NCBI GenBank assembly: GCA_020630095.1
Contig: JAHDCD010000005.1
Span: forward strand, 81,358 to 145,357
DNA length: 64,000 nucleotides
Source of the DNA: Rickettsiales bacterium
GTDB lineage: Bacteria; Pseudomonadota; Alphaproteobacteria; Rickettsiales; UBA8987
Reading direction: 5' to 3'
In this document: in pieces, positions 28,433-50,346 of the stretch
Layout of the letters: each line of letters begins with the position of its first letter
How positions within the stretch are numbered: the first letter of the stretch is position 1
The notes under the pieces: model-generated
Databases searched by the model: none
Told to the model about the DNA's origin: nothing
The model's input: the letters and a program-made list of their open reading frames with translations, nothing else
Position numbers and translations under genes: made by a program

Positions 28433-28509
<77 letters not shown>

Positions 28510-28819
28510 TTAAATTATACCTCACTCCCTATTTTACATTTTATTAGTTAAACCATGGCTGTCATAGCCAGTTACCGCGTGTTAAATGTACAAATATACA
28601 ATATCTCTTTGACTAAATTGGCCATTTTATAGCGCTTTTTAAACAAAACCCTCTTATTGAAAAATCTGTACTGCAAATAATTTTTGAGCAGTGTAATAAT
28701 ATACAAAAGTTCGTTTTTTAGGATGGTAGGCAGTATGCTATTAGACTTGCCTGAAATAGCAATCTGATATTCGCATGATAAAATGCGGTGAATAGGGGCG
28801 TTATTTACCGCATCCCATA

Positions 28820-30836: not shown

Positions 30837-30932
30837 AGCAAGCGCATACACGCTCTGCTTCAACGGTAAGTCAAGTTGTTACTTTTACTTATTCTACTTG
30901 ATACGCATATTTATCTGATTTAAACTGTGTTT

Positions 30933-31134: not shown

Positions 31135-31382
31135 TATTATGTTGGGCGTTCTAAAATTCTTATTTGTAATAATCCTTATCTTGCTATCACCAGCAATAAT
31201 TCTGGTTTATATTATTGGATTCTTAGTGAAGGAGTTTTTTGTAAAAATTAAGATAGCAATAAAAGGTAATTTTTAACCCCCGCAACCTAAACACGACATA
31301 AACGGAGATAAATTAACGTACCAAGACATAATTACATTACTTTATCCTCGCTTTCGTGAAAAACAGCTTCTATCTTCATTAT

Positions 31383-32939
31383 ATGAGTAATAACAATGAT
31401 TCACTTTCTAACGAAATTAAGCAAACATTATGGAAAACGGCAGATAAGCTACGTTCAACCATGAGCCCATCAGAATATAAGCACGTGGTGCTTGGCTTAA
31501 TATTCTTAAAGTATATTTCAGACTCATTTGAAGTTCGCCGCTCAACCCTAGAAAATAATTTCCGCAATCCCGACCACGCAGATTATGAAGCTGATGAAGC
31601 AGAAATATTAGAGCTATTGGAAGAAAAAGATTATTACACCATGGATAATATATTCTTCGTACCCAGCAACTCACGCTGGCAAGCAATCCAAAATTCAGCA
31701 AAACAAGCCGGCCTAGGTAAACGCATAGATGACGCCCTGCTAGAAATTGAAAATGAAAACCAATCATTAAAAGGCATCTTAAACCGCAATTACGCACGCT
31801 TACCAATTGAAGATGATAAACTAGCTGGCCTAATTGATTTAATATCTACCATAGGCTTCAATGAAGGCGATAAATCCACCGACATATTAGGGCAAGTTTA
31901 CGAATATTTCCTAGGACAATTCGCATCAGCCGAAGGTAAACGTGGCGGCGAGTTCTACACATCAGCTTCAATTGTAAAAACCCTTGTTGAAGTGCTAGCC
32001 CCATATAAAGGTAAAATTTACGACCCTTGCTGTGGCTCTGGTGGTATGTTCGTTCAATCAGAAAAATTCATCAAAGCTCATGGCGGTAAAATTGCCGATA
32101 TCTCCATTTACGGGCAAGAGATGAACTCAACCACATGGAAGCTGGCCGCAATGAACCTAGCAATTCGTGGCATAGATTATAATCTAGGGCGTGAACCGCA
32201 AGATAGCTTCTTCAAGAACCAACACCCAGATTTACGTGCAGATTTCATAATGGCTAACCCTCCATTTAACGTTTCAGATTGGGGCGGCGATAAGCTAGAG
32301 AGTGATAATCGCTGGAAATATGGCACTCCGCCAGCAGGTAATGCCAACTTCGCTTGGATTCAGCACATGATACACCATCTGAACGCCAACGGTAGAGCCG
32401 GCATAGTGCTTGCTAATGGTTCAATGAGCTCCACCACATCAGGCGAAGGAGAAATTCGCAAAAGCCTAGTTGAAGGAGATGTTGTAGAGTGCATGGTGGC
32501 ACTTCCGGGGCAATTATTCTTCAACACGCAAATTCCCGTTTGCTTATGGTTTTTAGCCAAGCAAAAGAAACGCAAAGGCGAGGTGCTATTTATTGACGCG
32601 CGCAATTTAGGCGAAATGGAAACCAGAGTACAAAAAGTTTTCTCTGATTCCGATATATCAGAAATTGCCAACACATACCATAATTGGGCGGCAGCTAATG
32701 ATGAATATGAAGATATAAAGGGGTTTTGTAAATCTGCCAGCTTAGCTGATATTGAAAGCCATGATTTTGTGCTAACCCCCGGCAGATATGTTGGCGTTGC
32801 CGATGAAGAAGATGATGGCATACCATTTGAAGATAAAATGCGAGATTTAACGCAAAACCTAAAGACTCAATTTGAAACCTCCGCCGAACTTGAACTGCGA
32901 ATTAAAGATAACCTTTCTAAATTGGGTTATGCGATATAA
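31383..32939 (+). CDS. hsdM: Type I restriction-modification system methyltransferase subunit
   Basis: N-terminal LWKTADKLR, AdoMet motif DPCCGSGGMF and catalytic NPPFN. Confidence 0.95.
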   Translation: MSNNNDSLSNEIKQTLWKTADKLRSTMSPSEYKHVVLGLIFLKYISDSFEVRRSTLENNFRNPDHADYEADEAEILELLEEKDYYTMDNIFFVPSNSRWQAIQNSAKQAGLGKRIDDALLEIENENQSLKGILNRNYARLPIEDDKLAGLIDLISTIGFNEGDKSTDILGQVYEYFLGQFASAEGKRGGEFYTSASIVKTLVEVLAPYKGKIYDPCCGSGGMFVQSEKFIKAHGGKIADISIYGQEMNSTTWKLAAMNLAIRGIDYNLGREPQDSFFKNQHPDLRADFIMANPPFNVSDWGGDKLESDNRWKYGTPPAGNANFAWIQHMIHHLNANGRAGIVLANGSMSSTTSGEGEIRKSLVEGDVVECMVALPGQLFFNTQIPVCLWFLAKQKKRKGEVLFIDARNLGEMETRVQKVFSDSDISEIANTYHNWAAANDEYEDIKGFCKSASLADIESHDFVLTPGRYVGVADEEDDGIPFEDKMRDLTQNLKTQFETSAELELRIKDNLSKLGYAI

Positions 32940-32967
32940 CTTTTTTGTCGTTCGTTGACGCAGTAAT

Positions 32968-32997
32968 TGTCATTCGCCGACTTGATCGGCGAATCCA
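32968..32997. repeat. Half-size palindromic element related to families A/B
   Basis: TGTCAT-TCGCCGA-CTTGA-TCGGCGA-ATCCAG. It has the same GTCAT terminus and the ATCCAG of family B. Confidence 0.55.
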
Positions 32998-33012
32998 GAA
33001 ATAAAAATAATT

Positions 33013-33618
33013 ATGAAAAATTTATTAAAAATAGAAAAGTGGATTAAAGAAAAACTTATCTCACTAAAAAGTCAAGTTAAGCCTTTTTGTCATTTAATAG
33101 GTTTGTTGGGCGCATTCTTATTGCTTATTATTTTTTTACTATCTTCAAAGAAGATAGATATTCTCATTATTTATACTCAAATGTTTGTTGGCATAGGCTT
33201 GATATACTTTGCAGGTAAGCAATATCAAAATCAAAAGATACAAAGAGAAGATGCACTTTTTGATAAGAGGTTAAATCTTATTAAAAAGATAGATAGTCAG
33301 TTTATAAAGCTAAGTTTAGAAATAAATTCCGCTCAAAAAGAAGAGATTAATTTAGAAAAACTTTATCATGATGCTACAAGCCTTATGGGTTTACTAACCT
33401 TTGAAAGAAAAGAGTTTGAATATCTATTCCCTGATAATAAAAACCAAGGAGTAATTAATTTTTTTACATTAATGAAGCTATCAACAGACTTTGTAAGTAA
33501 TGGATTAGATAAGTGTAAAGATAATAATTCTATAAGAAGTAAATTTATTGCTGATATACGAGATATAATGATGAACCTTCCTTTTGAAGATTTAACAAAA
33601 TTTATAGAAAATGAATAA
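33013..33618 (+). CDS. Two-TM membrane protein of unknown function nested between hsdM and hsdS
   Basis: Hydrophobic segments LIGLLGAFLLLIIFLL and IIYTQMFVGIGLIYFA, followed by a helical cytoplasmic tail. The stop overlaps the hsdS start by 8 nt. Confidence 0.6.
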   Translation: MKNLLKIEKWIKEKLISLKSQVKPFCHLIGLLGAFLLLIIFLLSSKKIDILIIYTQMFVGIGLIYFAGKQYQNQKIQREDALFDKRLNLIKKIDSQFIKLSLEINSAQKEEINLEKLYHDATSLMGLLTFERKEFEYLFPDNKNQGVINFFTLMKLSTDFVSNGLDKCKDNNSIRSKFIADIRDIMMNLPFEDLTKFIENE

Positions 33619-34894
33619 TTGGCAAGAAAAGACGCTAGGCGAAGTTTGTTTTAATGCATCAGAAACATTTGATCTAAAAAAACAAGATGAAGTCATTTTT
33701 ATAAATACAGGAGACGTATTAAAGAATAAATTCTTACACAATAATCTATCCAAAGTTAAAGGATTGCCGGGGCAGGCAAAAAAATCAATTATTATAAACG
33801 ATTTGTTGTATAGTGAGATAAGGCCGCAAAATAGCCGGTATGCATTAGTAGATTTCGATTGTGAAAACTACGTTGTTTCAACTAAGTTTATGATTTTGAG
33901 ATCATACAATAATATACTGCCTAAATATTTACTTTTATTACTTAGCTCAAATATTTATTTAAAAGAGTTTCAACTAATAGCAGAATCAAGATCTGGAACA
34001 TTTCCTCAAATCACGTTTGACTCAATATCTTATTTTCCAATTAACTTACCACCTATAGACGAGCAGGAGAGGATAGCGGAGGTGCTGGGGAGTTTAGATG
34101 ATAAGATAGAGAATAATAACCGCATGAATAAAAGCCTTGAGCAGATGGCGGAGGCGATATTCAAATGTTGGTTCATTGACTTTGAGCCGGTAAAGGCAAA
34201 AATGGCTGGCGAAAGCGAGGAGTCTATTTGCGCTAGGTTAAACATCACCCCTGAAATTCTAACCCTCTTCCCTAACTCCCTCACCGAATCCGAACTAGGC
34301 AAAATCCCTACAGGCTGGGAAGTTAAAACTTGCGGCGAAGTATTTGATATTTGTGGTGGCACCACTCCAAGCACGAAGAATGAAGCTTTTTGGAATGGGG
34401 ATATAAACTGGGTAACTCCAAAAGATTTATCTAGGTTAAATTCAATAATTTTAACAAATAGTGAAAGAAAGATAACAGAAGCTGGGCTTATGAAAATCAG
34501 CTCTGGATCGCTCCCTGTTAATACAGTTCTGATGTCTTCAAGAGCACCTGTTGGGTACTTATCAATAACGGCAATTGAAACAGCCATTAATCAAGGATTT
34601 ATTGCATTTAAAGAAAATACAAACTTACCATCAGAATATACACTAAACTGGTTGAAGCATAATATGGAAGAGATTAAGAACCGTTCGGGCGGCTCAACCT
34701 TTTCAGAGATTAGCAAAACTGTTTTTAGATCAATTGATAAAATTTTACCCGAAAGTGAAATAATTAATTCTTACGTGGGTATAGCAAAAGCCATGTATCA
34801 AAAAATTAATGAGAATCAGAAACAATCGGAGGAGTTGGCGAAGGCAAGAGATGCGCTTCTGCCAAAACTAATCTCCGGCGAAATAAGGGTATAG
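33611..34894 (+). CDS. hsdS: Type I restriction-modification system specificity subunit
   Basis: Two target-recognition domains are separated by a conserved helix (PPIDEQERIAEVLGSLDDKIENN). The C-terminal conserved helix is LPKLISGEIRV. Confidence 0.93.
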   Translation: MNNWQEKTLGEVCFNASETFDLKKQDEVIFINTGDVLKNKFLHNNLSKVKGLPGQAKKSIIINDLLYSEIRPQNSRYALVDFDCENYVVSTKFMILRSYNNILPKYLLLLLSSNIYLKEFQLIAESRSGTFPQITFDSISYFPINLPPIDEQERIAEVLGSLDDKIENNNRMNKSLEQMAEAIFKCWFIDFEPVKAKMAGESEESICARLNITPEILTLFPNSLTESELGKIPTGWEVKTCGEVFDICGGTTPSTKNEAFWNGDINWVTPKDLSRLNSIILTNSERKITEAGLMKISSGSLPVNTVLMSSRAPVGYLSITAIETAINQGFIAFKENTNLPSEYTLNWLKHNMEEIKNRSGGSTFSEISKTVFRSIDKILPESEIINSYVGIAKAMYQKINENQKQSEELAKARDALLPKLISGEIRV

Positions 34895-34897
34895 GTT

Positions 34898-35296
34898 ATG
34901 AATGAGGTTAGATATAATTTACAAAATATATCTTTAGCAGTTGAAGGGCTTATTATTGGATCGGGCTCAATTGGCAAACGTCTTGCTAATGAATGCACTA
35001 TGGGCAACCCTTTAGATAAGATTGATTGGGAGTATTTACATAATCATTGTGATGCTTGGATTAAAGAAGATGTTGAATACTTGAAAAATAAATTTGAGGA
35101 GATTGAGGCACTTTCTAAAAAAAGAATTAAAGATGAGATAGAAATGCAAGGTATTATGTATGAAAGAGGAATTAGGTATAATAACAGCGTTGAAGCTCTA
35201 ATATCTAGAATGAAGGGGCAGGCAAAAGAAATCGCAAAGCATCTTCACAACATACATATGTATAATTGTTATAAAGAAAGGTGGGGGAATGAATAA
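34898..35296 (+). CDS. Hypothetical 132-aa protein (first gene of nested cassette)
   Basis: The ORF starts 3 nt after the hsdS stop. No recognisable motif. Confidence 0.5.
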   Translation: MNEVRYNLQNISLAVEGLIIGSGSIGKRLANECTMGNPLDKIDWEYLHNHCDAWIKEDVEYLKNKFEEIEALSKKRIKDEIEMQGIMYERGIRYNNSVEALISRMKGQAKEIAKHLHNIHMYNCYKERWGNE

Positions 35297-35299
35297 GTA

Positions 35300-36016
35300 A
35301 TGAGTAAAAAGTTTAACATATATTGCGATGAGAGCTGTCATTTGCTGCCGAAAACTATCATAGAAGAAAATAGATATATGGTGCTTGGTGGTATTGAATG
35401 TCCTGAAAATATTAAATCTGAAATCTTTAATAGAATTAAAGAAATTAAAGAAAACAATGGGATTAAATATTCTACAGAACTTAAATGGACTAAGGTTTCT
35501 AAGGGTAAAGTTGAAGCTTATAAAGATATTATAAATTATTTCTTTGATAAAGATGGCCTTAAATTTAGAGCAGTTGTTGTTGATAAATCTAAACTTAAAG
35601 AAGGCGAAGATAAAAAGTCATTTAACGAGCTATATTATAAAATTTACTACCAACTTCTTAATTGGTTTTTAGATGATAGCCATTTGTATAATATCTATAT
35701 TGACATTAAAGACACCCAGGGTGTTGAGAAAATAGATAAATTAAAAGATGTTCTTCGAAATAAACTCTACGATTTTGATGGTAATTGCTTGAAGAAGATT
35801 CAGCAAATTCGCTCTCATGAAGTAGCTACAATGCAGATGGTTGATATAATAATTGGTGCTGTATCATACGCCAATAGATATGGCGATAAAGGCAAGAGTG
35901 ATGCTAAGAATGAATTGGTTGATCTTATCCGTAGTAAATCTGGATTAAGCTTAGTTAAAAGTTCTACTCAAGGGGCTAAAAAATTTAATATTTTCTGCTG
36001 GGAGGGTAAGCGATAA
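35300..36016 (+). CDS. DUF3800-like protein
   Basis: The N-terminal IYCDESCH and C-terminal MQMVDIIIGAVSYA segments match my recollection of the DUF3800 signature. Confidence 0.6.
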   Translation: MSKKFNIYCDESCHLLPKTIIEENRYMVLGGIECPENIKSEIFNRIKEIKENNGIKYSTELKWTKVSKGKVEAYKDIINYFFDKDGLKFRAVVVDKSKLKEGEDKKSFNELYYKIYYQLLNWFLDDSHLYNIYIDIKDTQGVEKIDKLKDVLRNKLYDFDGNCLKKIQQIRSHEVATMQMVDIIIGAVSYANRYGDKGKSDAKNELVDLIRSKSGLSLVKSSTQGAKKFNIFCWEGKR

Positions 36017-36513
36017 TGGATTTACCCGATCTTTTAGAAATTGAGCATTTTGGTGGCTCATGGGATAATTATCTTGATGCAGCATATAAAATCTATTGCG
36101 ATGAAGTTGTTAATGGTAATTTAGATTTTATGGGAATTGAGATTAAGTGTCCTTGGCACCCACCTTTTAATGATAAGCACTTTTCTTTCTGGCATATTAT
36201 ATCTCAAGCTAGTTCGGCATCAACTAAAGAAGAAGATAGAGAGCCTGACTTTGAAAGAATAAAAAGAATAAGGTGGATACCATTTATTTTAAAAATTAGT
36301 AAGAATCAAAATGAAGTTTTATGCTGGAATAAAATTGTAAAAACCAAACGAGGGCGAAAAACACATTTACAGATTTTACATAAAAATTCTGGATTTATGA
36401 TCGTACTAAGGAAGGCAAAAAATAGATATGATATAGTAACAGCGTACAGGATAAAAAACCCTGGAAGAAAAATTGCTGAGTATGATAAGGTAATGGATCC
36501 GAGAAAAGCATAG
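36016..36513 (+). CDS. Hypothetical 165-aa basic protein, translationally coupled to the DUF3800-like gene
   Basis: 1-nt stop/start overlap (TAATG) and a GGAGG about 10 nt upstream of the ATG. No recognisable motif. Confidence 0.55.
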   Translation: MDLPDLLEIEHFGGSWDNYLDAAYKIYCDEVVNGNLDFMGIEIKCPWHPPFNDKHFSFWHIISQASSASTKEEDREPDFERIKRIRWIPFILKISKNQNEVLCWNKIVKTKRGRKTHLQILHKNSGFMIVLRKAKNRYDIVTAYRIKNPGRKIAEYDKVMDPRKA

Positions 36514-36604
36514 GGCATAAATGCCCTAAGTAGCTCCTCTTACACTAGGCAAGTGAGACTAGGTACACTATAACACATAATTAACGTAAATAGCAAGTGG
36601 AAAA

Positions 36605-39600
36605 ATGAGAATAACAGAAGATACATTAGAGCAAGCATTGATTGAATGGCTTGGTGAGCTGGGTTTTGGTTATGAGCATGGCTCTAATTTTACGCCAGAT
36701 AGTAGCGATGAACGTACGAGCTATAAGCAAGTTATCCTTGAACAAAAATTGCGTAATGCGTTAGAGCGAGTTAATCCGAATTTGCCAGCAAAAGCTATTG
36801 ATGATGCGTTATATCAGATAATAAATCCATCGCACCCCAGCTTACTTCAACGCAATAGAGAGTTCCAAAAGTTATTATCTACCGGTATTAAAGTTGAATA
36901 TGATAATGGCGATGAAGAAGTGGGTGATATTGCCTATTTAGTGGACTTCGAGAATGTTGATAATAATGAGTGGTTAGTTGTTAATCAGTTTACTATTGAA
37001 GGCACTTACGCTAACCGCCGCCCTGATGTTATAATTTTCGTTAATGGTTTGCCGTTATTTGTATTTGAATTGAAAAATCCAGCCGATGAAGAAGCTGATA
37101 TTTGGAAGGCTTATGAGCAAATTCAATTTTACAAAGAACGTATAGAGGATTTATTCAATAGTAATATTGCGTGCATTATATCTGATGGCATAGATGCACG
37201 AATAGGCTCTTTAACGGCCAATAAAGAACGCTTTATGGCTTGGCGTGCAGGTGATGAAGATGAAGCATCTGCAGCATTAGAACTTGAGAAATTCACAAGG
37301 GCATTTTTTATCAAAGAAAATCTGCTTTCTTATATGCAGTATTTCATATTATTTGAAGAAGATGAAAAAAATATAATTAAGAAAATTGCCGGCTATCATC
37401 AATTTTACGCTGTGCAAGCGGCAATGAAAAGTACATTAGCCGCTACATCTGAAAATGGTGATAGGCGCGCAGGCGTTGTTTGGCATACTCAAGGTTCGGG
37501 TAAATCTATTTCTATGACGTGCTATGCTTCAATGGTAATGAGGCATAAAGGAATGAATAACCCTACTCTTGTTATTGTTACGGATAGAAACGAGCTAGAT
37601 AACCAACTATTCGAGCAATTTTGTAAAGCTAAAGATGCATTAGGAGAATTACCTCAAAAAGCCGATAGTAGAGAAGAAGTAAAAGAACTTTTAGCTAACA
37701 GGCCTTCTGGTGGCGTTATATTTACTACAATACAAAAGTTTGGTTTGAATGAGGATAGTAATGAATATCCAGCATTATCAGAGCGTAAAAATATTGTAGT
37801 TATTTCTGATGAAGCTCATAGAAGTCAATATGGTCATAAAGCCAGAGTTGATAAAGAAACTGGAAAGGTGAAATATGGCTATTCTAAATATCTTCGTGAT
37901 GCATTGCCAAATGCCTCATTTATAGGTTTTACGGGTACTCCAGTTGAAATGGAAGACAGAGATACAAGAGCTGTATTTGGTGGGTATGTTCATATTTATG
38001 ATATTAAACAAGCCGTAGAAGATGGCGCAACTGTTACACTTCATTATGAGCCACGCTATATTCCGTTAACTGCCGATGAAGAAATGCTCGCCAAACTTGA
38101 TGAAGAGCTAGATGAGATATTAGAAGATGAGGAAGAAGAATCTTCGGAAAAACATAAATCTAACTGGTCTACCATGGCGCGCTTAGCTGGCGCAGAACCT
38201 AGGGTAAAACTTTTAGCTAAAGATATTGTTGAACATTTTGAAGAGCGCACATCTGCATTAGATGGTAAAGCAATGGCCGTATGCATGACTCGTGATATAT
38301 GCGCCGATTTATATGAGGAGATAATAAAATTACGCCCAGATTGGCATGATGACGACCCTATGAAAGGCGTTGTTAAAGTAATTATGACATCTAACGCTTC
38401 TGATAGTGAAAAGCTACGTCGTCATAATTATGGCTCGAAGGTTAAGAAGGATATGGAGAAAAGAGCCAAAAATCCCGATGACCCTCTTAAAATTGTTATT
38501 GTACGTGATATGTGGCTCACTGGCTTTGATGCACCTTCTATGCATACAATGTACATTGATAAACCAATGAAGGGGCATAATTTAATGCAGGCTATAGCTA
38601 GAGTTAATAGGGTGTTTAAAGATAAGCCTAGTGGCCTGATTGTTGACTATATTGGAATTGCTAATGAGCTAAAACTTGCGAAAGAAACTTATACTGCAAG
38701 TAACGGTAAAGGCGATATTATCATCGATTCTCAAAAGCAGCTAGAATTACTTAAAGAAAAAATGCACGTGGTAAGAGATATGCTTCATGGAGTTGATTAC
38801 TCTTCATATCAACAAAATGCTCTATCTGTAATGCCTTTGATGATGGATCATATACTAGGTCTTGACGATGGTAAAAAACGTTTTGCAGATGCAGTTTTAA
38901 TAGCGTCTAAAGCAATGGCTATATGTGGCACTTTAGATGAAGCGACTGATTACAGAGATGAATTAGCATTATTTCAAGCGGTAAAATCAGCATTATCCAA
39001 AAAAGCTGGTGGTAAACTCAGAAGTAAAGATGATATTGATAACGCTATGCGTCAAATAATATCAAATGCGGTAATTACCGATGATATTGTTGATATATTT
39101 GATGCATCAGGGGTAAAAAAGCCAGATATTTCTATTTTATCAGATGATTTCTTAAAAGAGTTTAGCAAAATGCCACAAAAGAATTTGGCAGTTGAATTGC
39201 TTGAACGCATAATGGCAGATAAAATTAAATCTAAAGCTGATAGCAATATTACTACGGCAAAAAAATACTCCGATAGACTGAAAGAAGTTATTAGCAGATA
39301 CCAATCTAGAACGGTTGATACCTCTGAAATTATTGAAGAGCTAATATCAATGGCTAAAGAATATAATCAAGCCGAAAAACGTGGGGATAATTTAGGTTTA
39401 AATTCAGATGAATTGTCATTTTATGATGCATTAGAAACTAATGAAGCAGCTGTTAGAGAATTAGGCGATGAAGTTTTAGTTACCATTGCTAGAGAGCTTA
39501 CGGATAAACTTCGTAAATCTGTAACTATTGATTGGCAAAATAGAGAATCTGTAAGAGCTAAAATTAGAATTGCCATCAAACGCATTCTTAAAACTCATAA

Positions 39601-39682
39601 ATATCCACCTGATAAGCAAGAAAAGGCAATTGAAACTGTTTTAAAACAAGCTGAATTATTATCTCATAGTTTAGTGCAATAG
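36605..39682 (+). CDS. hsdR: Type I restriction enzyme endonuclease/translocase subunit
   Basis: N-terminal PD-(D/E)XK (RRPDVIIFVNGLPLFVFELK), Walker A TQGSGKS and DEAH box (ISDEAHRSQ). 1025 aa. Confidence 0.95.
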   Translation: MRITEDTLEQALIEWLGELGFGYEHGSNFTPDSSDERTSYKQVILEQKLRNALERVNPNLPAKAIDDALYQIINPSHPSLLQRNREFQKLLSTGIKVEYDNGDEEVGDIAYLVDFENVDNNEWLVVNQFTIEGTYANRRPDVIIFVNGLPLFVFELKNPADEEADIWKAYEQIQFYKERIEDLFNSNIACIISDGIDARIGSLTANKERFMAWRAGDEDEASAALELEKFTRAFFIKENLLSYMQYFILFEEDEKNIIKKIAGYHQFYAVQAAMKSTLAATSENGDRRAGVVWHTQGSGKSISMTCYASMVMRHKGMNNPTLVIVTDRNELDNQLFEQFCKAKDALGELPQKADSREEVKELLANRPSGGVIFTTIQKFGLNEDSNEYPALSERKNIVVISDEAHRSQYGHKARVDKETGKVKYGYSKYLRDALPNASFIGFTGTPVEMEDRDTRAVFGGYVHIYDIKQAVEDGATVTLHYEPRYIPLTADEEMLAKLDEELDEILEDEEEESSEKHKSNWSTMARLAGAEPRVKLLAKDIVEHFEERTSALDGKAMAVCMTRDICADLYEEIIKLRPDWHDDDPMKGVVKVIMTSNASDSEKLRRHNYGSKVKKDMEKRAKNPDDPLKIVIVRDMWLTGFDAPSMHTMYIDKPMKGHNLMQAIARVNRVFKDKPSGLIVDYIGIANELKLAKETYTASNGKGDIIIDSQKQLELLKEKMHVVRDMLHGVDYSSYQQNALSVMPLMMDHILGLDDGKKRFADAVLIASKAMAICGTLDEATDYRDELALFQAVKSALSKKAGGKLRSKDDIDNAMRQIISNAVITDDIVDIFDASGVKKPDISILSDDFLKEFSKMPQKNLAVELLERIMADKIKSKADSNITTAKKYSDRLKEVISRYQSRTVDTSEIIEELISMAKEYNQAEKRGDNLGLNSDELSFYDALETNEAAVRELGDEVLVTIARELTDKLRKSVTIDWQNRESVRAKIRIAIKRILKTHKYPPDKQEKAIETVLKQAELLSHSLVQ

Positions 39683-39702: not shown

Positions 39703-40671
39703 ATGCGATTAGAAAAAGCAGAGAATTTATTGAAATTAGCCATCCTTATGCAAACAAAGGAGGATGGAGTCAGCTTAATTGATATTCAAGAAGAGTTCGA
39801 CGTTGGTAGGCGAACTGCAGAAAGAATGCGCGACTCTATCCAAAGGTTAATTCCATCAACCCATTCTATTGGACGTGAAGGTAGGATAAAGAAGTGGAAA
39901 ATATCAGATAATAAATTTGGCTCATTAATTAACTTTTCAGCTGATGAGTTAGCTCAAGTAAAAGCATCTGCAAATAAATTACGTGAGACAAAATTAGATA
40001 GTGATGCTGATACTCTTGATGAGGTTTATGCTAAAATTAAATCATCACTGCCATTAAATCAAAATGTACGTTTAGAACCTGATATAGAAGCTATTATTGA
40101 GGCTGAAGGTTACGATACAAGAGTTGGTGTTAAGAATAAAATTTCCAGCGATATTTTAAATATTCTGCGCGAGGCCATTAAATCATGTAAAAAAGTTAAA
40201 ATCACTTATCAAAATAGCCAAGATAAGCAATCTACCAGAACTGTTGCGCCTTATGGATTCCTTTATGGAAATAAGCATTATATTATCGCTATGTGCTCAA
40301 AGGCTGATGGTATTAGAACATTTAATTTAAGTAAGATTGTTAAAGCTACGCTTACAGAAATTTCATACGAGATACCTTCGGATTTTAACTTGAAAGCTTA
40401 TAATCAGCGCTCTTTTGGAGTATTCCAAGAAATACCACACGAGGTAATTTGGAGGTTTAGCCCTGAAGTAGCAAATGCAGCTAATGAATATGAGTTTCAC
40501 CCATCTCAAGAAACGGAAATTTTAGAAGATGGTTCATTACTGGTTTCATTTACTGCAGGTGGCTTAAAGGAAATGTGCTACGAACTCTTCAAATGGGAAG
40601 GTGCTGTTGAAATTATAGCGCCGGAAGAGTTGAAAGACGAATTTAGAGAAATTATGAAGTCTAACCTTTAA
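39703..40671 (+). CDS. WYL-domain transcriptional regulator (HTH-WYL-WCX architecture, BrxR/CapW-like)
   Basis: N-terminal wHTH (IDIQEEFDVGRRTAERMRDSI). The central WYL-like segment is RTVAPYGFLYGNKHYIIAMCSKADGIRTFNLSKI. Confidence 0.8.
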   Translation: MRLEKAENLLKLAILMQTKEDGVSLIDIQEEFDVGRRTAERMRDSIQRLIPSTHSIGREGRIKKWKISDNKFGSLINFSADELAQVKASANKLRETKLDSDADTLDEVYAKIKSSLPLNQNVRLEPDIEAIIEAEGYDTRVGVKNKISSDILNILREAIKSCKKVKITYQNSQDKQSTRTVAPYGFLYGNKHYIIAMCSKADGIRTFNLSKIVKATLTEISYEIPSDFNLKAYNQRSFGVFQEIPHEVIWRFSPEVANAANEYEFHPSQETEILEDGSLLVSFTAGGLKEMCYELFKWEGAVEIIAPEELKDEFREIMKSNL

Positions 40672-41749
40672 TACTATAATTCCTTAAAAAATCTGCAAAT
40701 GTAACACACCTATTTTTAGGAATCATCGCAGCAATCCAACCTTTGCCTCTTCCTTTCTTTCCACTTTTATCCTTTAAAAGATTCGCCTGTAATTTAACTG
40801 GACTATCTAGGAAATAATATGTTGCATCTTCACCCTGAATATCATTCTCAATCTCTAGCGCAGCCTGCCATTTAGGTAGCAATTCTTTTTTCTTCAGAGG
40901 AAACTCCTCATTAGAAAAGGAATTTTCAATCAACTTCTCACAAGTATCTTGTACAAGCTCCCATTTGATATTTTTAATAGTGATTATGCCTAATATTTTA
41001 GAAAGACTTGGTATTCCTTCATCTAGATTGGCTAAATTACCTCGTGTAAAATAGGGTGCGAAATATAAAGGTGAGCCATTCACTTTGCCCCTTCTATAGA
41101 CACCATTCTGGTATCTTCTAATCTCACTATCCAAGCCAACATCTTGTATTAATATTTCTTTTTGATTTGCCATTCCATAACTCCTTTCATAATATTTTAA
41201 AAACTCATCTAATTCTTCTCCAGCATTTGGATTTTGATCCGCCAACTCATTTATTAATTCACGCCATGTGATATCAATAATATTCAAATTATTGTCACCG
41301 CCATGAAGGTTGATTCCTGATTGATGAGATAAGAAAACAAAGAATTTTTTATACTTATCATCCTCTTTCTTATCATAGATAGGTTTGTATAATTCGAATT
41401 GCTCTCTGGTAGCTTTTCCCGAACCGACCTTACATTCTATAATTAGAAAATATCTCGTTTCCTTATCTGTAAATTCAATTTCTATATCGGTGCGTCCACC
41501 TTTGTCTGAATCATTTAGTTCTGCAGCCTTATATGATTTCTCAATTTTAATATCTAAACTCTTAAACCACGAACTTGATTTTTGTTCTAATTTTATATCT
41601 AGCAACTTGCATAAAGCCCTAATTACTTTTGGGTCAACTCCTGCCAGATAAGCTAAAACTTTTGATAGATTAGTTTCCTTTCTAGTAGAGTCTAAAATAT
41701 CAAATAAGTTCAAATAGCTCTTTTTATTTTCTGCGCTTTTAATCTGCAT
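40661..41749 (-). CDS. PD-(D/E)XK nuclease-family N-terminal domain protein with unknown C-terminal domain
   Basis: The N-terminal NLFDIL..ETNLSKVLAYL and GRTDIEIEF....FLIIECKVGS segments give a D...E-x-K pattern. Confidence 0.6.
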   Translation of the reverse strand: MQIKSAENKKSYLNLFDILDSTRKETNLSKVLAYLAGVDPKVIRALCKLLDIKLEQKSSSWFKSLDIKIEKSYKAAELNDSDKGGRTDIEIEFTDKETRYFLIIECKVGSGKATREQFELYKPIYDKKEDDKYKKFFVFLSHQSGINLHGGDNNLNIIDITWRELINELADQNPNAGEELDEFLKYYERSYGMANQKEILIQDVGLDSEIRRYQNGVYRRGKVNGSPLYFAPYFTRGNLANLDEGIPSLSKILGIITIKNIKWELVQDTCEKLIENSFSNEEFPLKKKELLPKWQAALEIENDIQGEDATYYFLDSPVKLQANLLKDKSGKKGRGKGWIAAMIPKNRCVTFADFLRNYSIKG

Positions 41750-43223
41750 AACTCTTCACCACCTCCAAAAGTTTAACCATAGCATAAGTGTCCAGTTTGC
41801 AATATTCTAATAGGTCTGGAATTGAAGCTTTAAAGTCTTTATCAGTCAATTTGCCTTTAACAAAATTAGAGAAGCAGCTCATAGCATCTGCACCGTTAGA
41901 TATTTCCATATCAGCATATGAAAACTTAGTAAATGCAGGTAAAACCTTTTTAATTGAATAAGAGCCTTCCTGATTAGGATGGTAAAGATGCCTTGATCTA
42001 AAAGGAATTGCTAAATCTACCATGCGTGAATTTATATTATCAATCACATCGGCATATTCAGGCAGGAATTTTGCGAGCTCATTATTGCGCGCTTCTTCAA
42101 ATGACTGATTATAAACAATAACACTGCCGCTATTACCCAACGCATCTACTAAAACTTTAGCAAAATCACACCTTGGGTCAGATTTCTTATCATGTAGAAA
42201 TTCAATATGCTCTAGCTTACCATTTTCCTCTTTTTGTATATGAAGTGAAAATTGAAATGGTATCTGTTGATACGGGCGAGAGCCATTAAATGGAGGAATT
42301 GCCTCACCGAAAGTTTCGTAATCGAGATAATATAATGGATATTCCAATTTAGATGCAAAAGCCTTTAACTCATTTTTATCAATAAAAGCTTCACCATTCA
42401 TATATGAGTTATAATCAACAGATTTATTGCCATTGGGCGCACCGGATTCTGGTAAATCCAGAATATCAAAGCTCCCAGATTCATTTCCAATTTCAAAACC
42501 TCTTTTTGCACCCAGTAATTCAATAATTGAATATTGAGGGATATTATCCCAACAGTAATCTTTGTAATCACACTCAAATGGTTTTAAGCAATGCGTGCCG
42601 TTATTGATTTTCGGCTCCTCACTTGATGCCAAAACTTCTAATAAAGGTTTAACCCTAGCCTCAACCTCATCCTGTTTGGCTAAAGTTTCATCTGTTATAT
42701 CATGAAGTTTAAATATCTTTTGTGGATCAATATCACCATCACGCACATATTCATTATTAATTACCATCATGTAGCAATTGCGGATATTATACCCCGCACC
42801 TTTAAACGCATAATATTGCAGCGACATATCATCATAATGATAATCTTTAACGCTAGTGCTAGATTTAACCTCAATAAGATCTACTGATTTATCAAGATTA
42901 ACTTTTAAAATATCAATTTTTGAGTACGCACCGGTGTCGCGGTGAATTGCAGTTGCCTCAAATATTACTCGATAATCAGCATCTATATAATCTTTAGTTA
43001 GAGATACTGCTTCAGCAACTTTCCAATAAGGGGCTTCAACCTCTATAGATTTTAACTCAAAATATTCTTTTGCTAACTCGCCAACTTCGTGACCTGTATC
43101 AAATAACGCCTGTTGTTCTGGTGTGATTTCAGGCTTTAAATCTTTTCTATTTCTAAACAGCCATAACGCTTTTGGGCATTGCTTACCCTTCACATATTGA
43201 GATTTTGATATTGTGTGACTCAT
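41739..43223 (-). CDS. Cas4/RecB-like PD-(D/E)XK nuclease fused to DEDD-like exonuclease domain (DUF2779-like)
   Basis: The ATG at 43223 lies 4 nt after the upstream stop. The four-Cys pattern is C(QCP)...HC-x5-C-x5-C. Nuclease motifs are IDILK...DLIEVK. The C-terminal half has YLDYET, YNQSFE and KLDTYAM. Confidence 0.65.
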   Translation of the reverse strand: MSHTISKSQYVKGKQCPKALWLFRNRKDLKPEITPEQQALFDTGHEVGELAKEYFELKSIEVEAPYWKVAEAVSLTKDYIDADYRVIFEATAIHRDTGAYSKIDILKVNLDKSVDLIEVKSSTSVKDYHYDDMSLQYYAFKGAGYNIRNCYMMVINNEYVRDGDIDPQKIFKLHDITDETLAKQDEVEARVKPLLEVLASSEEPKINNGTHCLKPFECDYKDYCWDNIPQYSIIELLGAKRGFEIGNESGSFDILDLPESGAPNGNKSVDYNSYMNGEAFIDKNELKAFASKLEYPLYYLDYETFGEAIPPFNGSRPYQQIPFQFSLHIQKEENGKLEHIEFLHDKKSDPRCDFAKVLVDALGNSGSVIVYNQSFEEARNNELAKFLPEYADVIDNINSRMVDLAIPFRSRHLYHPNQEGSYSIKKVLPAFTKFSYADMEISNGADAMSCFSNFVKGKLTDKDFKASIPDLLEYCKLDTYAMVKLLEVVKSYAD

Positions 43224-43227
43224 AATA

Positions 43228-43944
43228 TTAACTTTTATAATGTGTAAATCTTTCAATATATTCAGGGTTCATTAGAAGCTCTTTTGCACTTTCTAAATCT
43301 TCCATAACGCATCTAGGAATATCTATATTTTTAGGTAAATTTTTATGTCTATATATAAAATGAGGTGCAAACTTATTAAAACTATCTCTATTTCTCATTG
43401 ATGATTTAATATTGTCCGAAAATCTGACTAACCATTTTTCTTGATCTGTTTGACTTATAATTTCATTTATATCGATATTAGATAATCTTAATCTAAACTT
43501 ACCACATTGAATAAATTTACGGTACTGTCCTTCTTGAATTTGAATACCTAACTCTAGTTCATTATCGTTATCTAACTTTTTAATTAAAGAACACCCAACC
43601 AAAGGTAATTTTCTTGTTAAACCATAATAGAAGTTTGTTTTTATTTCATCTTCATTTACCGAAAAATTATTTTCTTTGAAGTGAGCCTCAATTCTATCTA
43701 AAAGTTTACTTGCTAGATATTTCTCAATTGTTTCAGCAAAGCGTATCCCGTTAAGATGATCATATGTATCTCCCTCATCTTTGCTACGCAACAAAAATGG
43801 AAATTCACTATCATCACCTATTAATTTTATTTTAGTTAACTTATTTAAAACTCTTAATAAATCGGTGTAGTCTTTATGATATTCTGTGCGCCAATTTATA
43901 TCGTCTAACTTATCAGATAAATCACCAAAGCTAATATCTGCCAT
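43228..43944 (-). CDS. Hypothetical 238-aa protein
   Basis: The ORF is tightly packed between the truncated methyltransferase and the nuclease-exonuclease gene. No recognisable motif. Confidence 0.5.
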   Translation of the reverse strand: MADISFGDLSDKLDDINWRTEYHKDYTDLLRVLNKLTKIKLIGDDSEFPFLLRSKDEGDTYDHLNGIRFAETIEKYLASKLLDRIEAHFKENNFSVNEDEIKTNFYYGLTRKLPLVGCSLIKKLDNDNELELGIQIQEGQYRKFIQCGKFRLRLSNIDINEIISQTDQEKWLVRFSDNIKSSMRNRDSFNKFAPHFIYRHKNLPKNIDIPRCVMEDLESAKELLMNPEYIERFTHYKS

Positions 43945-44947
43945 TCTTGCCTAGATTGATATTATTAGTGTGCGGTGCTTTGCCATTTTTATAAACACAA
44001 ACCATCTCATGCTTTGAGCGATATAATGAACCCATACCACCATTATTCTTATTCCAAACGCAGATATTTTTATGTTCGCTATAATATTCTTTAGCAGCAC
44101 TTATTAGTTCGTAGAGATGTCGCCAATCCATAAAGATATAATGAAGAGAGCCGTCTTTAGAGAATTTTACAGCTTGATTTATGAATTTAGAGAGAAACTC
44201 AATAAATTCATTCTCAGACATTTCTCCTGATGCCATAGCAAATTCATCATGCTTAATTGAGCCATTGCCGCAAACATGATTATCTATATTAACATTAAAC
44301 GGGGGGTCACTCAGAAGGGCATCTGCCTTTTCATTTTCTTTGAAAAGTTGCTGATAAGATTCTTCTTCAGTAGAGTCACCACATATTAAAATATGCCTAC
44401 CCAGAATTATAACATCACCAAGCTTCGTAATAGGTGCTAAGTTATCATCTGCTTCCGGAATATATTCAGGCTCAGGTTCTTTATCAGAATCATCATCTGC
44501 ACCAGCCATAATTACCTCAAGCTCATCATTATCAAAACCCGGAATAATGAACTCCTCATCTAGCTCCATAACCTCATCAAGTATAATAGTTAGCTCTTCA
44601 GCCAAAGCTTCTTCATCAAGGCCTGTCATTAATGATATTTTATTATCAATAATTCTAAGTGCCTTCACCTGATGTTCAGATAAGTGATCTACATAAATTA
44701 CAGGGATTTTTTTATATCCTGCTAATTTAGCCACTTCCAGACGCGCATGACCAGCTATAATAATATTCTCTCTATTTAACAATATGGGAAATAAGAAGCC
44801 GTACATACTAACCGAATTTAGTAATGCCCGCTCTTGTTCCTTATCATGCTCTTTGGTGTTATTCTGATAGGCTATTGGTATATCAACTGAGACATACTCA
44901 ATCTGGATATTTAAATCCTTATAAAGGGTATCTATTTTATTGTTCAT
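43931..44947 (-). CDS. ParB-like N-terminal domain fused to an N6/N4 DNA methyltransferase that is truncated before the AdoMet-binding motif (possible pseudogene)
   Basis: ParB/Srx box IIAGHARLEVAKLAG, then catalytic motif IV SDPPFN, then GGMGSLYRSKHE. The ORF stops right after GKNGRY, with no HPT.KP or F/G-x-G-S-G motif. Confidence 0.7.
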   Translation of the reverse strand: MNNKIDTLYKDLNIQIEYVSVDIPIAYQNNTKEHDKEQERALLNSVSMYGFLFPILLNRENIIIAGHARLEVAKLAGYKKIPVIYVDHLSEHQVKALRIIDNKISLMTGLDEEALAEELTIILDEVMELDEEFIIPGFDNDELEVIMAGADDDSDKEPEPEYIPEADDNLAPITKLGDVIILGRHILICGDSTEEESYQQLFKENEKADALLSDPPFNVNIDNHVCGNGSIKHDEFAMASGEMSENEFIEFLSKFINQAVKFSKDGSLHYIFMDWRHLYELISAAKEYYSEHKNICVWNKNNGGMGSLYRSKHEMVCVYKNGKAPHTNNINLGKNGRY

Positions 44948-50330: not shown

Positions 50331-50346
50331 GATAGATAAATATAAC

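What the first reader, a model, noticed from the sequence alone, without database searches (positions are those of the whole stretch)
40661..43944. Tightly coupled three-gene nuclease module: unknown 238 aa, Cas4-like nuclease fused to a DEDD-like exonuclease, and a PD-(D/E)XK protein
Seen in the sequence:
- Three minus-strand genes are packed with a 4-nt gap (43224-43227) and an 11-nt overlap (41739-41749).
- Gene 2 has one N-terminal Cys (KGKQCP) plus HC-x5-C-x5-C, and the motifs IDILK...DLIEVK. Its C-terminal half has YLDYET, YNQSFE and KLDTYAM.
- Gene 3 has NLFDIL..LSKVLAYL and TDIEIEF...FLIIECK.

Established knowledge:
- A D...(D/E)xK core with a four-Cys cluster is the Cas4/AddB-type iron-sulfur nuclease layout.
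- D-x-E plus downstream acidic motifs is the DEDD 3'-5' exonuclease layout.
- From memory, the gene 2 fusion matches the DUF2779 family.

Inference: this is a DNA-end-processing or degradation module sitting in a defence island next to a type I R-M system and a WYL regulator, and it matches no named defence system I know. The 238-aa first gene could be the sensor or specificity partner.
Basis: partly seen in the sequence, partly recalled or inferred. Interest (0 to 1): 0.8.

Follow-up and report, generated by a model that had tools for sequence, protein, structure and literature searches.

The report
Patchwork of nuclease genes, not one system
The three tightly packed genes are real, but they are a broken remnant of one nuclease gene, an intact DUF2779 double nuclease and an unrelated solo nuclease sitting together in a mobile defence island, not a new conserved three-gene immune system.

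Summary
The ORFs, the 4-nt gap, the 11-nt overlap and all quoted motifs are present.

- **Gene 2** is a typical DUF2779 protein, a Cas4-like Fe-S nuclease fused to a DEDDy exonuclease. This architecture is already published.
- **Gene 3** is a PDDEXK_4 nuclease with a possibly ASCH/PUA-like C-terminal domain. None of the 40 loci of its family examined carries DUF2779.
- **Gene 1** is not a sensor. It is the C-terminal 55% of a ~415-aa PDDEXK_4 nuclease whose catalytic domain is gone. Its ATG lies inside the last codons of a 3'-truncated ParB-methyltransferase gene, so a single deletion probably created both stumps.

The trio occurs in none of 175 DUF2779 loci, 40 gene-3-family loci or 14 distinct gene-1-family loci.

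What does recur around DUF2779 is facultative:
- WYL regulators, in about 15% of loci. The window's WYL gene (39703-40671) is the likely cognate regulator.
- PDDEXK_4 nucleases of various subfamilies, in about 5% of loci and often translationally coupled.
- Type I R-M, GmrSD and AAA ATPases.

One related island (L155) has the same R-M, then DUF2779, then an overlapping PDDEXK_4 gene.

Verdict: the annotation of the genes is largely right, but the "three-gene system" is not supported. Interest is modest.

The parts
43931..44947 (-). 3'-truncated ParB_N + N6_N4 DNA methyltransferase (338 aa). It keeps motif IV (DPPF) but lacks the C-terminal AdoMet motif I, so it is a probable pseudogene.
   Evidence: Pfam N6_N4_Mtase covers only profile positions 2-116 of 221. 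PADLOC MTase_II covers 10-307 of 436. No FxGSG or HPTxKP motif occurs anywhere in the window. Intact homologues (L031, 439 aa; L231) continue after '..GKHGRY' with 'RTNVW..HPTVKP..FLGSGTT', whereas the window reads '..GKNGRY*'.
43935..43953 (.). Inferred deletion junction joining the 5' part of the methyltransferase gene to the 3' part of a PDDEXK_4 nuclease gene.
   Evidence: The gene 1 ATG (43944-43942) lies inside the methyltransferase codons K-N-G, with an in-frame TAG three codons upstream. Homology of gene 1 to full-length relatives begins within its first few residues.
43228..43944 (-). Gene 1: 5'-truncated relic of a PDDEXK_4-family nuclease. Only the C-terminal domain of unknown fold remains and no catalytic domain is left.
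   Evidence: The word-indexed search finds only the protein itself. The exhaustive HMMER search finds 22 homologues of mostly ~400-457 aa; residues 24-237 of gene 1 align to residues 165-420 of the best hit, P0245 (E 9e-15). All 10 homologues tested carry an N-terminal PDDEXK_4 / PDC-S26-like nuclease domain. Alignment A3 shows that the motifs SLGSRELFHSNFLAWL / REKxNxDL / IENKVKD are absent from gene 1. The AF2 model has pLDDT 84 and no significant PDB match.
41739..43223 (-). Gene 2: intact DUF2779 protein. It has an N-terminal Cas4-like PD-(D/E)XK nuclease with a 4-Cys cluster and a C-terminal DEDDy-type 3'-5' exonuclease.
   Evidence: PF11074 scores 156.5 bits against a cut-off of 23.3; Cas_Cas4 and RNase_H_2 hits are weak. 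PADLOC Cas4 gives 7e-7 over model positions 13-159 of 161. There are more than 5900 homologues. The invariant residues are C16, D104, E118, K120, C212, C218, C224, D301, E303, E376, Y474 and D478. The architecture is described in PMC3985635 and PMC13621843.
40661..41749 (-). Gene 3: intact two-domain solo nuclease. It has an N-terminal PDDEXK_4 domain (D88, E105-x-K107) and a conserved C-terminal domain with a possible ASCH/PUA-like fold.
   Evidence: PDDEXK_4 scores 1.6e-9. PDC-S26 matches only the N-terminal half. There are at least 363 full-length homologues. Alignment A1 shows both domains conserved. The AF2 model has pLDDT 85. The top Foldseek hits are ZmASCH at 4e-4, then MspJI, McrB N-terminal reader domains and PD-(D/E)XK nucleases. 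None of 40 family loci has DUF2779, WYL or gene 1 nearby.
39703..40671 (+). wHTH-WYL-WCX (BrxR/CapW-like) regulator. It is convergent with gene 3, overlapping it by 11 nt, and lies 20 nt after hsdR. It is the probable cognate regulator of the DUF2779 gene.
   Evidence: WYL scores 1.6e-14 and WCX 6.5e-12. Its closest relatives in the sampled loci (45% identity) lie directly upstream of the closest DUF2779 relatives (51-55% identity) in L012, L013 and L015. WYL is the commonest DUF2779 neighbour: 13 of 88 loci within three genes, and 12 of 80 in the second sample. L231 has DUF2779 and WYL convergent and adjacent with nothing between them.
31356..39682 (+). Context: a type I R-M operon (hsdM, hsdS, hsdR) with DUF3800/PDC-M04A and PDC-M04B embedded between hsdS and hsdR.
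   Evidence: PADLOC and Pfam. Locus L155 has the homologous R-M (hsdM 58%, hsdR 52.5% identity) with embedded DUF3800, followed directly by DUF2779 (54% identity) and an overlapping PDDEXK_4 gene.
28433..30863 (.). Context: tRNA-Arg, a large serine recombinase and a DUF2924 gene, the probable integration end of the island.
   Evidence: ARAGORN and Pfam Resolvase + Recombinase and DUF2924. Homologous recombinase (46.5%), DUF2924, ParB-methyltransferase (43%) and DUF2779 all occur together in L031 next to a terminase module.

Best explanation
The region is a patchwork at the cargo end of a roughly 16-kb mobile defence island, not a dedicated three-gene system. The island runs from tRNA-Arg and a serine recombinase, through a type I R-M system, to a relic of a ParB-methyltransferase gene.

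1. A single deletion fused the 5' part of the ParB-methyltransferase gene to the 3' part of a PDDEXK_4 nuclease gene. That left two dead stumps. Gene 1 is the second stump, and its 'tight coupling' to the upstream ORF is the scar of that deletion.
2. Gene 2 is a self-sufficient DUF2779 double nuclease. It combines a Cas4-like Fe-S 5'-end nuclease with a DEDDy 3'-5' exonuclease. I infer that it degrades or resects free DNA ends on both strands, and that the adjacent BrxR-like WYL protein represses it until a phage or DNA-damage signal appears.
3. Gene 3 is an independent solo endonuclease: a PDDEXK_4 catalytic domain plus a possible ASCH/PUA-like reader. I infer that it cuts foreign, possibly modified, DNA in the manner of a type IV restriction enzyme.

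Shown here: the gene structures, the truncations, the family memberships, the conserved catalytic residues and the neighbourhood statistics. Inferred: the enzymatic activities, regulation by WYL, a defence role, and any hand-over of gene 3-generated ends to DUF2779.
For: Truncations:
- Gene 1 aligns only to the C-terminal ~55% of ~415-aa PDDEXK_4 proteins.
- Its ATG lies inside the methyltransferase stop region.
- The methyltransferase lacks its C-terminal ~110-130 aa and motif I.

No conserved trio:
- 0 of 175 DUF2779 loci contain a gene 1 or gene 3 homologue by tblastn.
- 0 of 40 gene-3-family loci contain DUF2779, WYL or gene 1.
- Only 1 of 14 distinct gene-1-family loci has DUF2779 and 1 has WYL.

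DUF2779 neighbourhoods are heterogeneous:
- 149 Pfam families were found among 150 neighbouring proteins.
- The leaders were WYL/WCX 7, AAA 5, GmrSD 5, C5-methyltransferase 3 and PDDEXK_4 2.

WYL pairing is described.

Mobile-element backbone:
- tRNA-Arg, serine recombinase and DUF2924 are present.
- The related element L031 has ParB-methyltransferase, DUF5681 and terminase.

Other points:
- BrxR-family WYL regulators co-localise with many defence systems (PMC9122601).
- DUF2779 is almost absent from phage genomes (6 partial hits in 50,697 records) but present on 33 plasmids.
Against: - DUF2779 lies directly beside a PDDEXK_4 gene more often than a purely random mosaic predicts. About 9 of 168 sampled loci, plus two Arcobacteraceae plasmids, show this. 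Many are translationally coupled: L028 has a 4-nt overlap, L148 a 1-nt gap and L155 a 20-nt overlap.
- The related island L155 repeats the order R-M, DUF2779, overlapping PDDEXK_4 gene.
- In the window DUF2779 is coupled on both sides to PDDEXK_4-type genes, which hints at a functional pairing.
- The gene 1 frame is still open over 238 codons, so it may retain some function.
- The ASCH-like assignment for gene 3 rests only on a borderline Foldseek match (4e-4). It has no sequence-profile support.
- No activity, regulation or phenotype has been tested.
Confidence: 0.7

Rival explanations
1. DUF2779 and a PDDEXK_4 nuclease form a real, modular two-component system, usually under a WYL regulator. 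The PDDEXK_4 protein uses its variable C-terminal domain to recognise and cut the target DNA. DUF2779 then chews both strands from the break. In the window the original upstream partner was destroyed by the deletion, and gene 3, which overlaps the end of the DUF2779 gene, now serves as the partner.
For: PDDEXK_4 genes adjacent to DUF2779 in independent lineages, with different C-terminal domains and in both orders:
- L028: WYL, PDDEXK_4, DUF2779, with overlapping genes.
- L087: DUF2779 followed by full-length PDC-S26 (2.5e-60).
- L069.
- L139: a gene-1-family protein followed by DUF2779.
- L132 and L148 on Arcobacteraceae plasmids. The two PDDEXK_4 partners are 42% identical, and L148 reads PDDEXK_4, DUF2779, WYL with a 1-nt gap.
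- L155: the homologous type I R-M, then DUF2779, then an overlapping PDDEXK_4 gene.
- L172, L184, L187 and L215.

In the window itself the genes are coupled, with a 4-nt gap and an 11-nt overlap.
Against: - Roughly 95% of sampled DUF2779 genes have no PDDEXK_4 gene within the fetched flanks.
- The gene 3 family is never next to DUF2779 (0 of 40), and the gene 1 family only once in 14 distinct loci.
- Unrelated defence genes are equally frequent neighbours: GmrSD in 5 of 88 loci and type I hsdM in 11 of 175. Ordinary defence-island clustering could therefore account for the adjacency.
- DUF2779 is quasi-essential on its own in minimal Mycoplasma.
Confidence: 0.22
2. The DUF2779 gene and its WYL regulator are a DNA-repair or mobile-element maintenance function, not an anti-phage defence. 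The WYL protein senses DNA damage, as PafBC and DriD do. DUF2779 then processes broken or stalled DNA ends for recombination, either for the host or for the element that carries it.
For: - The Mycoplasma DUF2779 member MMSYN1_0389 is quasi-essential in JCVI-syn3.0, and a transposon insertion in M. bovis Mbov_0804 was among the mutants studied for survival in cell culture.
- Some DUF2779 genes sit beside DnaB-like helicases, ParB-methyltransferase and terminase modules of mobile elements (L031, L231, L148).
- From established knowledge, the HTH-WYL-WCX architecture is shared by the DNA-damage regulators PafBC and DriD.
Against: - The commonest identifiable neighbours are defence genes: GmrSD, type I R-M, C5-methyltransferase, Qat, Schlafen/AlbA_2 and IetA-like ATPases.
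- The distribution is patchy and plasmid- or island-borne, not universal.
- In the window the gene sits in an R-M island.
Confidence: 0.15
3. One reading: a novel obligate three-gene defence system in which the 238-aa protein is the sensor or specificity subunit for the two nucleases.
For: The three ORFs are tightly spaced on one strand in a defence island. No PADLOC system model covers them.
Against: - The trio is found nowhere else.
- Gene 1 is a truncated fragment of a PDDEXK_4 nuclease that begins at a deletion scar.
- The gene 3 family is otherwise independent of DUF2779.
Confidence: 0.03

Closest known systems
DUF2779 / PF11074 (RNase H-like family F.17 of Majorek et al. 2014; MMSYN1_0389 of JCVI-syn3.0; NCBIfam UU173 family in Mollicutes)
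   Same: Gene 2 has the full architecture: a Cas4-like PD-(D/E)XK domain with D...ExK, and a DEDD(y) exonuclease domain. The Pfam score is far above the cut-off and all catalytic residues are conserved.
   Different: Unlike the Mycoplasma member, which keeps only two cysteines, gene 2 and its relatives keep all four Fe-S cysteines. It is about 150 aa shorter than the UU173 subfamily and scores 114.8 bits against a cut-off of 225. It is island-borne with a WYL regulator, not housekeeping. The function of the family is still untested.
CRISPR-associated Cas4 / AddB-type Fe-S nucleases
   Same: The N-terminal half of gene 2 matches PADLOC Cas4 models end to end (7e-7). It has the one-plus-three cysteine arrangement and the D/ExK catalytic motif.
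   Different: The Pfam Cas_Cas4 score is just below the gathering threshold (21.1 against 22.7 bits). None of the neighbouring ORFs scanned matched Cas1 or Cas2. The domain is fused to an exonuclease. This is a 'solo Cas4-like' domain, not a Cas protein.
PADLOC candidate PDC-S26 / Pfam PDDEXK_4 solo nucleases
   Same: Gene 3, and the ancestors of gene 1, share the N-terminal PDDEXK_4 nuclease domain with PDC-S26 models. They occur as single genes in variable regions.
   Different: The matches cover only the nuclease half of the ~400-aa PDC-S26 models. The C-terminal domains of gene 3, gene 1 and PDC-S26 are mutually unrelated. To my knowledge PDC-S26 itself is only a computational candidate.
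Type IV (modification-dependent) restriction enzymes with PUA-like readers (MspJI SRA-like; McrB N-terminal EVE/YTH; ASCH fusions)
   Same: Gene 3 combines a PD-(D/E)XK nuclease with a beta-rich domain. That domain's best structural matches are ASCH, MspJI and McrB reader domains.
   Different: The structural match is borderline (E 4e-4, target TM 0.42-0.54). No sequence profile supports it. The domain order is nuclease first and reader second, the reverse of MspJI. Modification dependence is untested.
BrxR/CapW-family WYL regulators of defence systems
   Same: The window's WYL protein has the wHTH-WYL-WCX architecture. Its relatives sit immediately beside DUF2779 genes. The family is known to accompany diverse defence systems (PMC9122601).
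   Different: In the window it lies at the 3' end of hsdR and is convergent with the nuclease genes, not upstream of them. No operator or ligand has been identified.

Membership tests
DUF2779 (PF11074) | Pfam model matched above the gathering score | tested here: met
   156.5 bits against 23.3, covering model positions 1-126 of 126.
DUF2779 (PF11074) | N-terminal Cas4-like PD-(D/E)XK core (D...E-x-K) conserved | tested here: met
   D104, E118 and K120 are invariant in 30 homologues. PADLOC Cas4 scores 7e-7.
DUF2779 (PF11074) | C-terminal DEDD-type exonuclease residues conserved | tested here: met
   D301, E303, E376, Y474 and D478 are invariant. The RNase_H_2 hit is weak at 4.2e-4.
DUF2779 (PF11074) | Fe-S cluster binding and exo/endonuclease activity | not testable with these tools
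   Only the four invariant cysteines C16, C212, C218 and C224 can be shown.
CRISPR Cas4 | Pfam Cas_Cas4 matched above the gathering score | tested here: not met
   21.1 bits against a cut-off of 22.7.
CRISPR Cas4 | Encoded with cas1/cas2 or next to a CRISPR array | tested here: not met
   PADLOC and Pfam scans of neighbouring ORFs between about 25.6 and 50.3 kb gave R-M, WYL, PDC-M04 and methyltransferase hits and no Cas1 or Cas2. A repeat-array search was not run.
PDDEXK_4 (PF14281), gene 3 | Pfam model above the gathering score, with a catalytic D...E-x-K | tested here: met
   38.4 bits against 22.3. D88, E105 and K107 are invariant in 30 homologues.
PDDEXK_4 (PF14281), gene 1 | Presence of the nuclease domain | tested here: not met
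   There is no Pfam hit. Gene 1 aligns only to the region after the nuclease domain of full-length relatives. It is a fragment of a family member, not a functional member.
PADLOC PDC-S26 | Full-length match to a PDC-S26 model | tested here: not met
   Gene 3 matches only model positions 23-198 of 400 at E 7e-8. By contrast the L087 neighbour matches 10-382 of 413 at 2.5e-60.
Type IV restriction enzyme with PUA-like reader | A PUA-superfamily (ASCH/EVE/SRA/YTH) reader domain | tested here: inconclusive
   Foldseek gives ZmASCH at 4e-4, then MspJI and McrB N-terminal domains. Pfam and PDB sequence-profile searches do not support it.
Type IV restriction enzyme with PUA-like reader | Cleavage depends on modified bases | not testable with these tools
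   This needs biochemistry, or challenge with phages carrying modified DNA.
BrxR/CapW-type WYL regulator | wHTH-WYL-WCX domain architecture | tested here: met
   WYL 1.6e-14 and WCX 6.5e-12; HTH_11 is weak.
BrxR/CapW-type WYL regulator | Located at the head of the operon it regulates | tested here: not met
   In the window it follows hsdR by 20 nt and is convergent with genes 1-3. The feature is met for its homologues in L012, L013, L015 and L043.
A conserved three-gene system (gene 1 + gene 2 + gene 3) | The three genes co-occur in other genomes | tested here: not met
   The trio was found in 0 of 175 DUF2779 loci, 0 of 40 gene-3-family loci and 0 of 14 distinct gene-1-family loci.

The most novel reading that the evidence does not exclude
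DUF2779 is the end-resecting effector of an undescribed, modular, WYL-controlled anti-mobile-element system. Its facultative partners are PDDEXK_4 endonucleases with swappable C-terminal recognition domains, or ~680-aa double-AAA ATPases; the partner makes or exposes the DNA break. The window would then show a locus where one partner was lost by deletion and another, gene 3 with a possible modified-base reader, sits translationally coupled downstream.
Probability: 0.22. Interest if true: 0.6.

Novelty: new member of a known kind. Interest (0 to 1): 0.3.

Why it matters
As submitted, the finding would have added a false "three-gene system" to the list of candidate defence systems. The value here is mainly corrective. 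One member is a gene fragment created by a deletion, and the other two belong to families that normally live apart.

A lead remains. DUF2779 is a very widespread double nuclease, with more than 5,900 relatives found across bacteria and archaea, and it is quasi-essential in the minimal Mycoplasma. It still has no known function. These data show that outside Mollicutes it lives in defence islands and on mobile elements. Its recurrent companions there are BrxR-like WYL regulators, PDDEXK_4 nucleases and type I R-M systems. That gives a concrete, testable context for working out its function.

Tried and rejected
- **Gene 1 as a true orphan or sensor.** The word-indexed search found only the protein itself. 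The exhaustive HMMER search overturned this.
- **A shared C-terminal domain between the gene 1 and gene 3 families.** Rejected: hhalign aligns only the N-terminal nuclease domains.
- **Fold of gene 1.** The model is confident (pLDDT 84) but has no significant PDB match; the best is 2e-2 to PebS.
- **Sequence-profile links to solved structures.** Genes 2 and 3 gave nothing at E<=1 and E<=10 respectively. The domain calls therefore rest on Pfam, PADLOC, conserved motifs, Foldseek and the literature.
- **Prophage replication or recombination module.** DUF2779 is almost absent from 50,697 phage records and gene 3 is absent from both phages and plasmids. A few DUF2779 loci do lie next to ParB-methyltransferase and terminase modules.
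- **Attachment-site repeats.** No shared word of 10 nt or more links the tRNA-Arg end and the katG end of the island.
- **The ~680-aa AAA partner seen elsewhere.** No homologue occurs in the window.
- **Context of the closest DUF2779 relative.** P0123 (83% identity) and the window's own gene 2 are not retrievable from the contig index. The organism was not identified.
- **DNA-level similarity of 39703-44947 to plasmids.** None.
- **L155's downstream PDDEXK_4 as a gene-1-family member.** Rejected: only the nuclease domain is shared.

Full report
**1. Observation**

The three minus-strand ORFs exist as described.

| Gene | Coordinates | Length |
|---|---|---|
| Gene 1 | 43228-43944 | 238 aa |
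| Gene 2 | 41739-43223 (from the ATG) | 494 aa |
| Gene 3 | 40661-41749 | 362 aa |

- Homologues of gene 2 start at the same ATG. A TTG at 43256 would give 505 aa.
- The 4-nt gap ('tatt', 43224-43227) and the 11-nt overlap (41739-41749) are confirmed.
- Every quoted motif is present.

**2. Gene 2**

- Pfam gives DUF2779 at 5e-46, with sub-threshold Cas_Cas4 and RNase_H_2 hits.
- PADLOC Cas4 models align over their full length at 7e-7.
- NCBIfam gives only a partial UU173-family match.
- More than 5,900 relatives were found, 50-56% identical across Proteobacteria and 37-41% identical into Bacteroidota, Chloroflexota and DPANN archaea.
- In a 30-sequence alignment the following residues are invariant:
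  - the proposed Fe-S ligands C16, C212, C218 and C224;
  - the nuclease triad D104, E118 and K120;
  - the exonuclease residues D301, E303, E376, Y474 and D478.
- The architecture is already published. Majorek et al. 2014 place DUF2779 in the 3'-5' exonuclease clade and note its fusion with DUF83/Cas4 (PMC3985635). A 2026 paper dissects the quasi-essential Mycoplasma member MMSYN1_0389 as a Cas4-like domain plus a DEDDh/y domain (PMC13621843).
- A profile search of PDB sequences found nothing.

**3. Gene 3**

- Pfam gives PDDEXK_4 at 1.6e-9. PADLOC PDC-S26 models match only the N-terminal half.
- At least 363 full-length homologues exist.
- The alignment shows two conserved domains:
  - the nuclease domain, with D88 and E105-x-K107;
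  - a C-terminal domain with the motifs QKEILIQD, YRR, PLYFAPYFT, SKILG, TYYFLD and GRGKNWIAAMIPKNRCVTF.
- The AlphaFold model is good (pLDDT 85).
- Its best PDB matches are the Zymomonas ASCH domain (4e-4), MspJI, McrB N-terminal reader domains and assorted PD-(D/E)XK nucleases.
- Sequence profiles do not confirm the ASCH/PUA assignment, so it remains a hypothesis.
- In 40 loci of this family there is no DUF2779, WYL or gene 1 homologue and no conserved neighbour at all. A few type I R-M genes appear.
- The gene is absent from the phage and plasmid collections.
- Gene 3 therefore belongs to a stand-alone family.

**4. Gene 1**

- The word-indexed search of 5.8 billion proteins returned only the protein itself.
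- The exhaustive HMMER scan found 22 distant homologues, most of them 400-457 aa long. Residues 24-237 of gene 1 align to residues 165-420 of the best hit, P0245.
- All ten homologues tested carry an N-terminal PDDEXK_4 / PDC-S26-like nuclease domain.
- The alignment shows gene 1 starting just after that domain. The motifs SLGSRELFHSNFLAWL, REKxNxDL and IENKVKD are all missing.
- At the DNA level the gene 1 ATG lies inside the last codons of the upstream ORF (..GKNGRY*), with an in-frame TAG three codons before it.
- The upstream ORF is a ParB_N + N6_N4 methyltransferase that stops at profile position 116 of 221, or 307 of 436 in the PADLOC model. It lacks motif I.
- Intact homologues continue '...GKHGRYRTNVW...HPTVKP...FLGSGTT' (L231 and L031).
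- The simplest reading is a single deletion that joined the 5' part of the methyltransferase gene to the 3' part of a PDDEXK_4 gene.
- Gene 1 is thus a relic without a catalytic domain.
- Its remaining domain models confidently but has no PDB relative. It is unrelated to the C-terminal domain of gene 3.

**5. Is there a conserved module?**

I fetched 88 genomic and 80 metagenomic DUF2779 loci, plus seven annotated plasmid loci.

- None contains a homologue of gene 1 or gene 3 by tblastn.
- Immediate neighbours are extremely diverse: 149 Pfam families among 150 proteins.
- The recurrent neighbours are:

| Neighbour | Frequency |
|---|---|
| WYL/WCX regulators | 13 of 88 within three genes; 12 of 80 |
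| AAA ATPases of ~680 aa | 9 of 88 |
| GmrSD | 5 of 88 |
| Type I hsdM | 11 of 175 |
| PDDEXK_4 proteins | about 9 of 168 |

- The window's WYL protein (39703-40671; WYL + WCX) is 45% identical to WYL proteins that sit directly upstream of the closest DUF2779 relatives (L012, L013, L015).
- L231 has DUF2779 and WYL convergent and adjacent, exactly the window's geometry without gene 3 between them.
- Rhodoferax, Diaphorobacter and A. butzleri plasmids have DUF2779 immediately followed by WYL.
- WYL and DUF2779 is therefore the best-supported pairing, and gene 3 looks like an insertion between them.

**6.

PDDEXK_4 genes of several subfamilies lie next to DUF2779, often coupled.

- L028: WYL, PDDEXK_4, DUF2779 with overlapping genes.
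- L087: DUF2779 followed by PDC-S26.
- L069.
- L139.
- Arcobacteraceae plasmids L132 and L148, whose partners are 42% identical.
- L155 carries a type I R-M homologous to the window's (hsdM 58%, hsdR 52.5% identity, with the same embedded DUF3800 gene). It is followed by DUF2779 (54% identity) and an overlapping PDDEXK_4 gene. That gene shares only the nuclease domain with gene 3 and gene 1.

This is compatible with a facultative functional pairing. The frequency is about 5%, and GmrSD and R-M neighbours are equally common. The gene 3 and gene 1 families are rarely or never next to DUF2779 (0 of 40 and 1 of 14 distinct loci). Ordinary defence-island clustering therefore remains an adequate explanation.

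**7. Wider setting**

- tRNA-Arg (28433-28509), a large serine recombinase and a DUF2924 gene (28820-30863) precede the type I R-M. katG follows the methyltransferase stump.
- L031 carries homologues of the recombinase (46.5%), DUF2924, ParB-methyltransferase (43%) and DUF2779. There the ParB-methyltransferase is followed by DUF5681 and a large terminase.
- The window's island therefore looks like a decayed relative of a phage-like integrative element that now carries defence cargo.
- No attachment-site repeat was found.

**8. Mechanism (inferred)**

- The BrxR-like WYL protein represses expression until a phage or damage cue appears. The family's behaviour is described in PMC9122601.
- DUF2779 degrades DNA ends through its Cas4-like and DEDDy domains.
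- Gene 3 acts independently as a solo endonuclease, possibly guided by a modified-base reader.
- Its breaks could feed DUF2779, but nothing here shows that.
- Gene 1 and the methyltransferase stump are non-functional.

**9. Verdict**

The system-level claim is not. Novelty is limited to new members of known, uncharacterised families. The DUF2779, WYL and PDDEXK_4 association is a modest lead.

Noticed in passing
window 28433-30863: tRNA-Arg (ACG) is followed by a large serine recombinase (Resolvase + Recombinase, 552 aa) and a DUF2924 gene on the minus strand. This is probably the integration end of a ~16.5-kb island that runs to the methyltransferase stump at 44947, with katG beyond it. No direct repeat of 10 nt or more links the two ends.
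   Followed up: partly
window 33013-36513: The type I R-M operon has extra genes inserted between hsdM, hsdS and hsdR. They are a 201-aa ORF, a 132-aa ORF, a DUF3800 protein matching PADLOC PDC-M04A (7.5e-81) and a PDC-M04B protein (5e-38). The related locus L155 also has DUF3800 between hsdS and hsdR.
   Followed up: partly
window 43931-44947: A ParB_N + N6/N4 methyltransferase is truncated after '..GKNGRY' and lacks the AdoMet motif. In L031 and L231 the intact homologue heads a DUF5681 and large-terminase packaging module.
   Followed up: yes
window 49242-50348: A Fic/DOC protein with an N-terminal DUF4172 lies just outside the island. Fic-like genes were also among the recurrent neighbours of DUF2779 elsewhere (5 of 88 loci).
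   Followed up: no
L043 6131-10666; L133 3851-8465; L151 1739-6473; L173 2454-7458: A ~680-700-aa double-AAA ATPase with weak IetA-like PADLOC hits recurs together with WYL and DUF2779 in tight clusters. This may be a separate undescribed three-gene cassette. No homologue of the ATPase is in the window.
   Followed up: partly
L149 1-5494 (A. cryaerophilus pACRY43158): DUF2779 starts one base after the TatD-family gene of a set comprising a P-loop NTPase, a hypothetical gene, QatC and a TatD-family hydrolase (a likely Qat system). It is followed by a large AAA-domain gene.
   Followed up: no
L139 6766-8268: The DUF2779 gene downstream of a gene-1-family PDDEXK_4 protein is split into three ORFs. 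This is either a frameshifted pseudogene or MAG assembly error.
   Followed up: no
L001 7043-7459; L002 7094-7624: In the two closest gene-3-family loci examined, a small ORF (138 or 176 aa, no informative Pfam hit) overlaps the 3' end of the gene 3 homologue. In the window that position is taken by the convergent WYL gene.
   Followed up: partly
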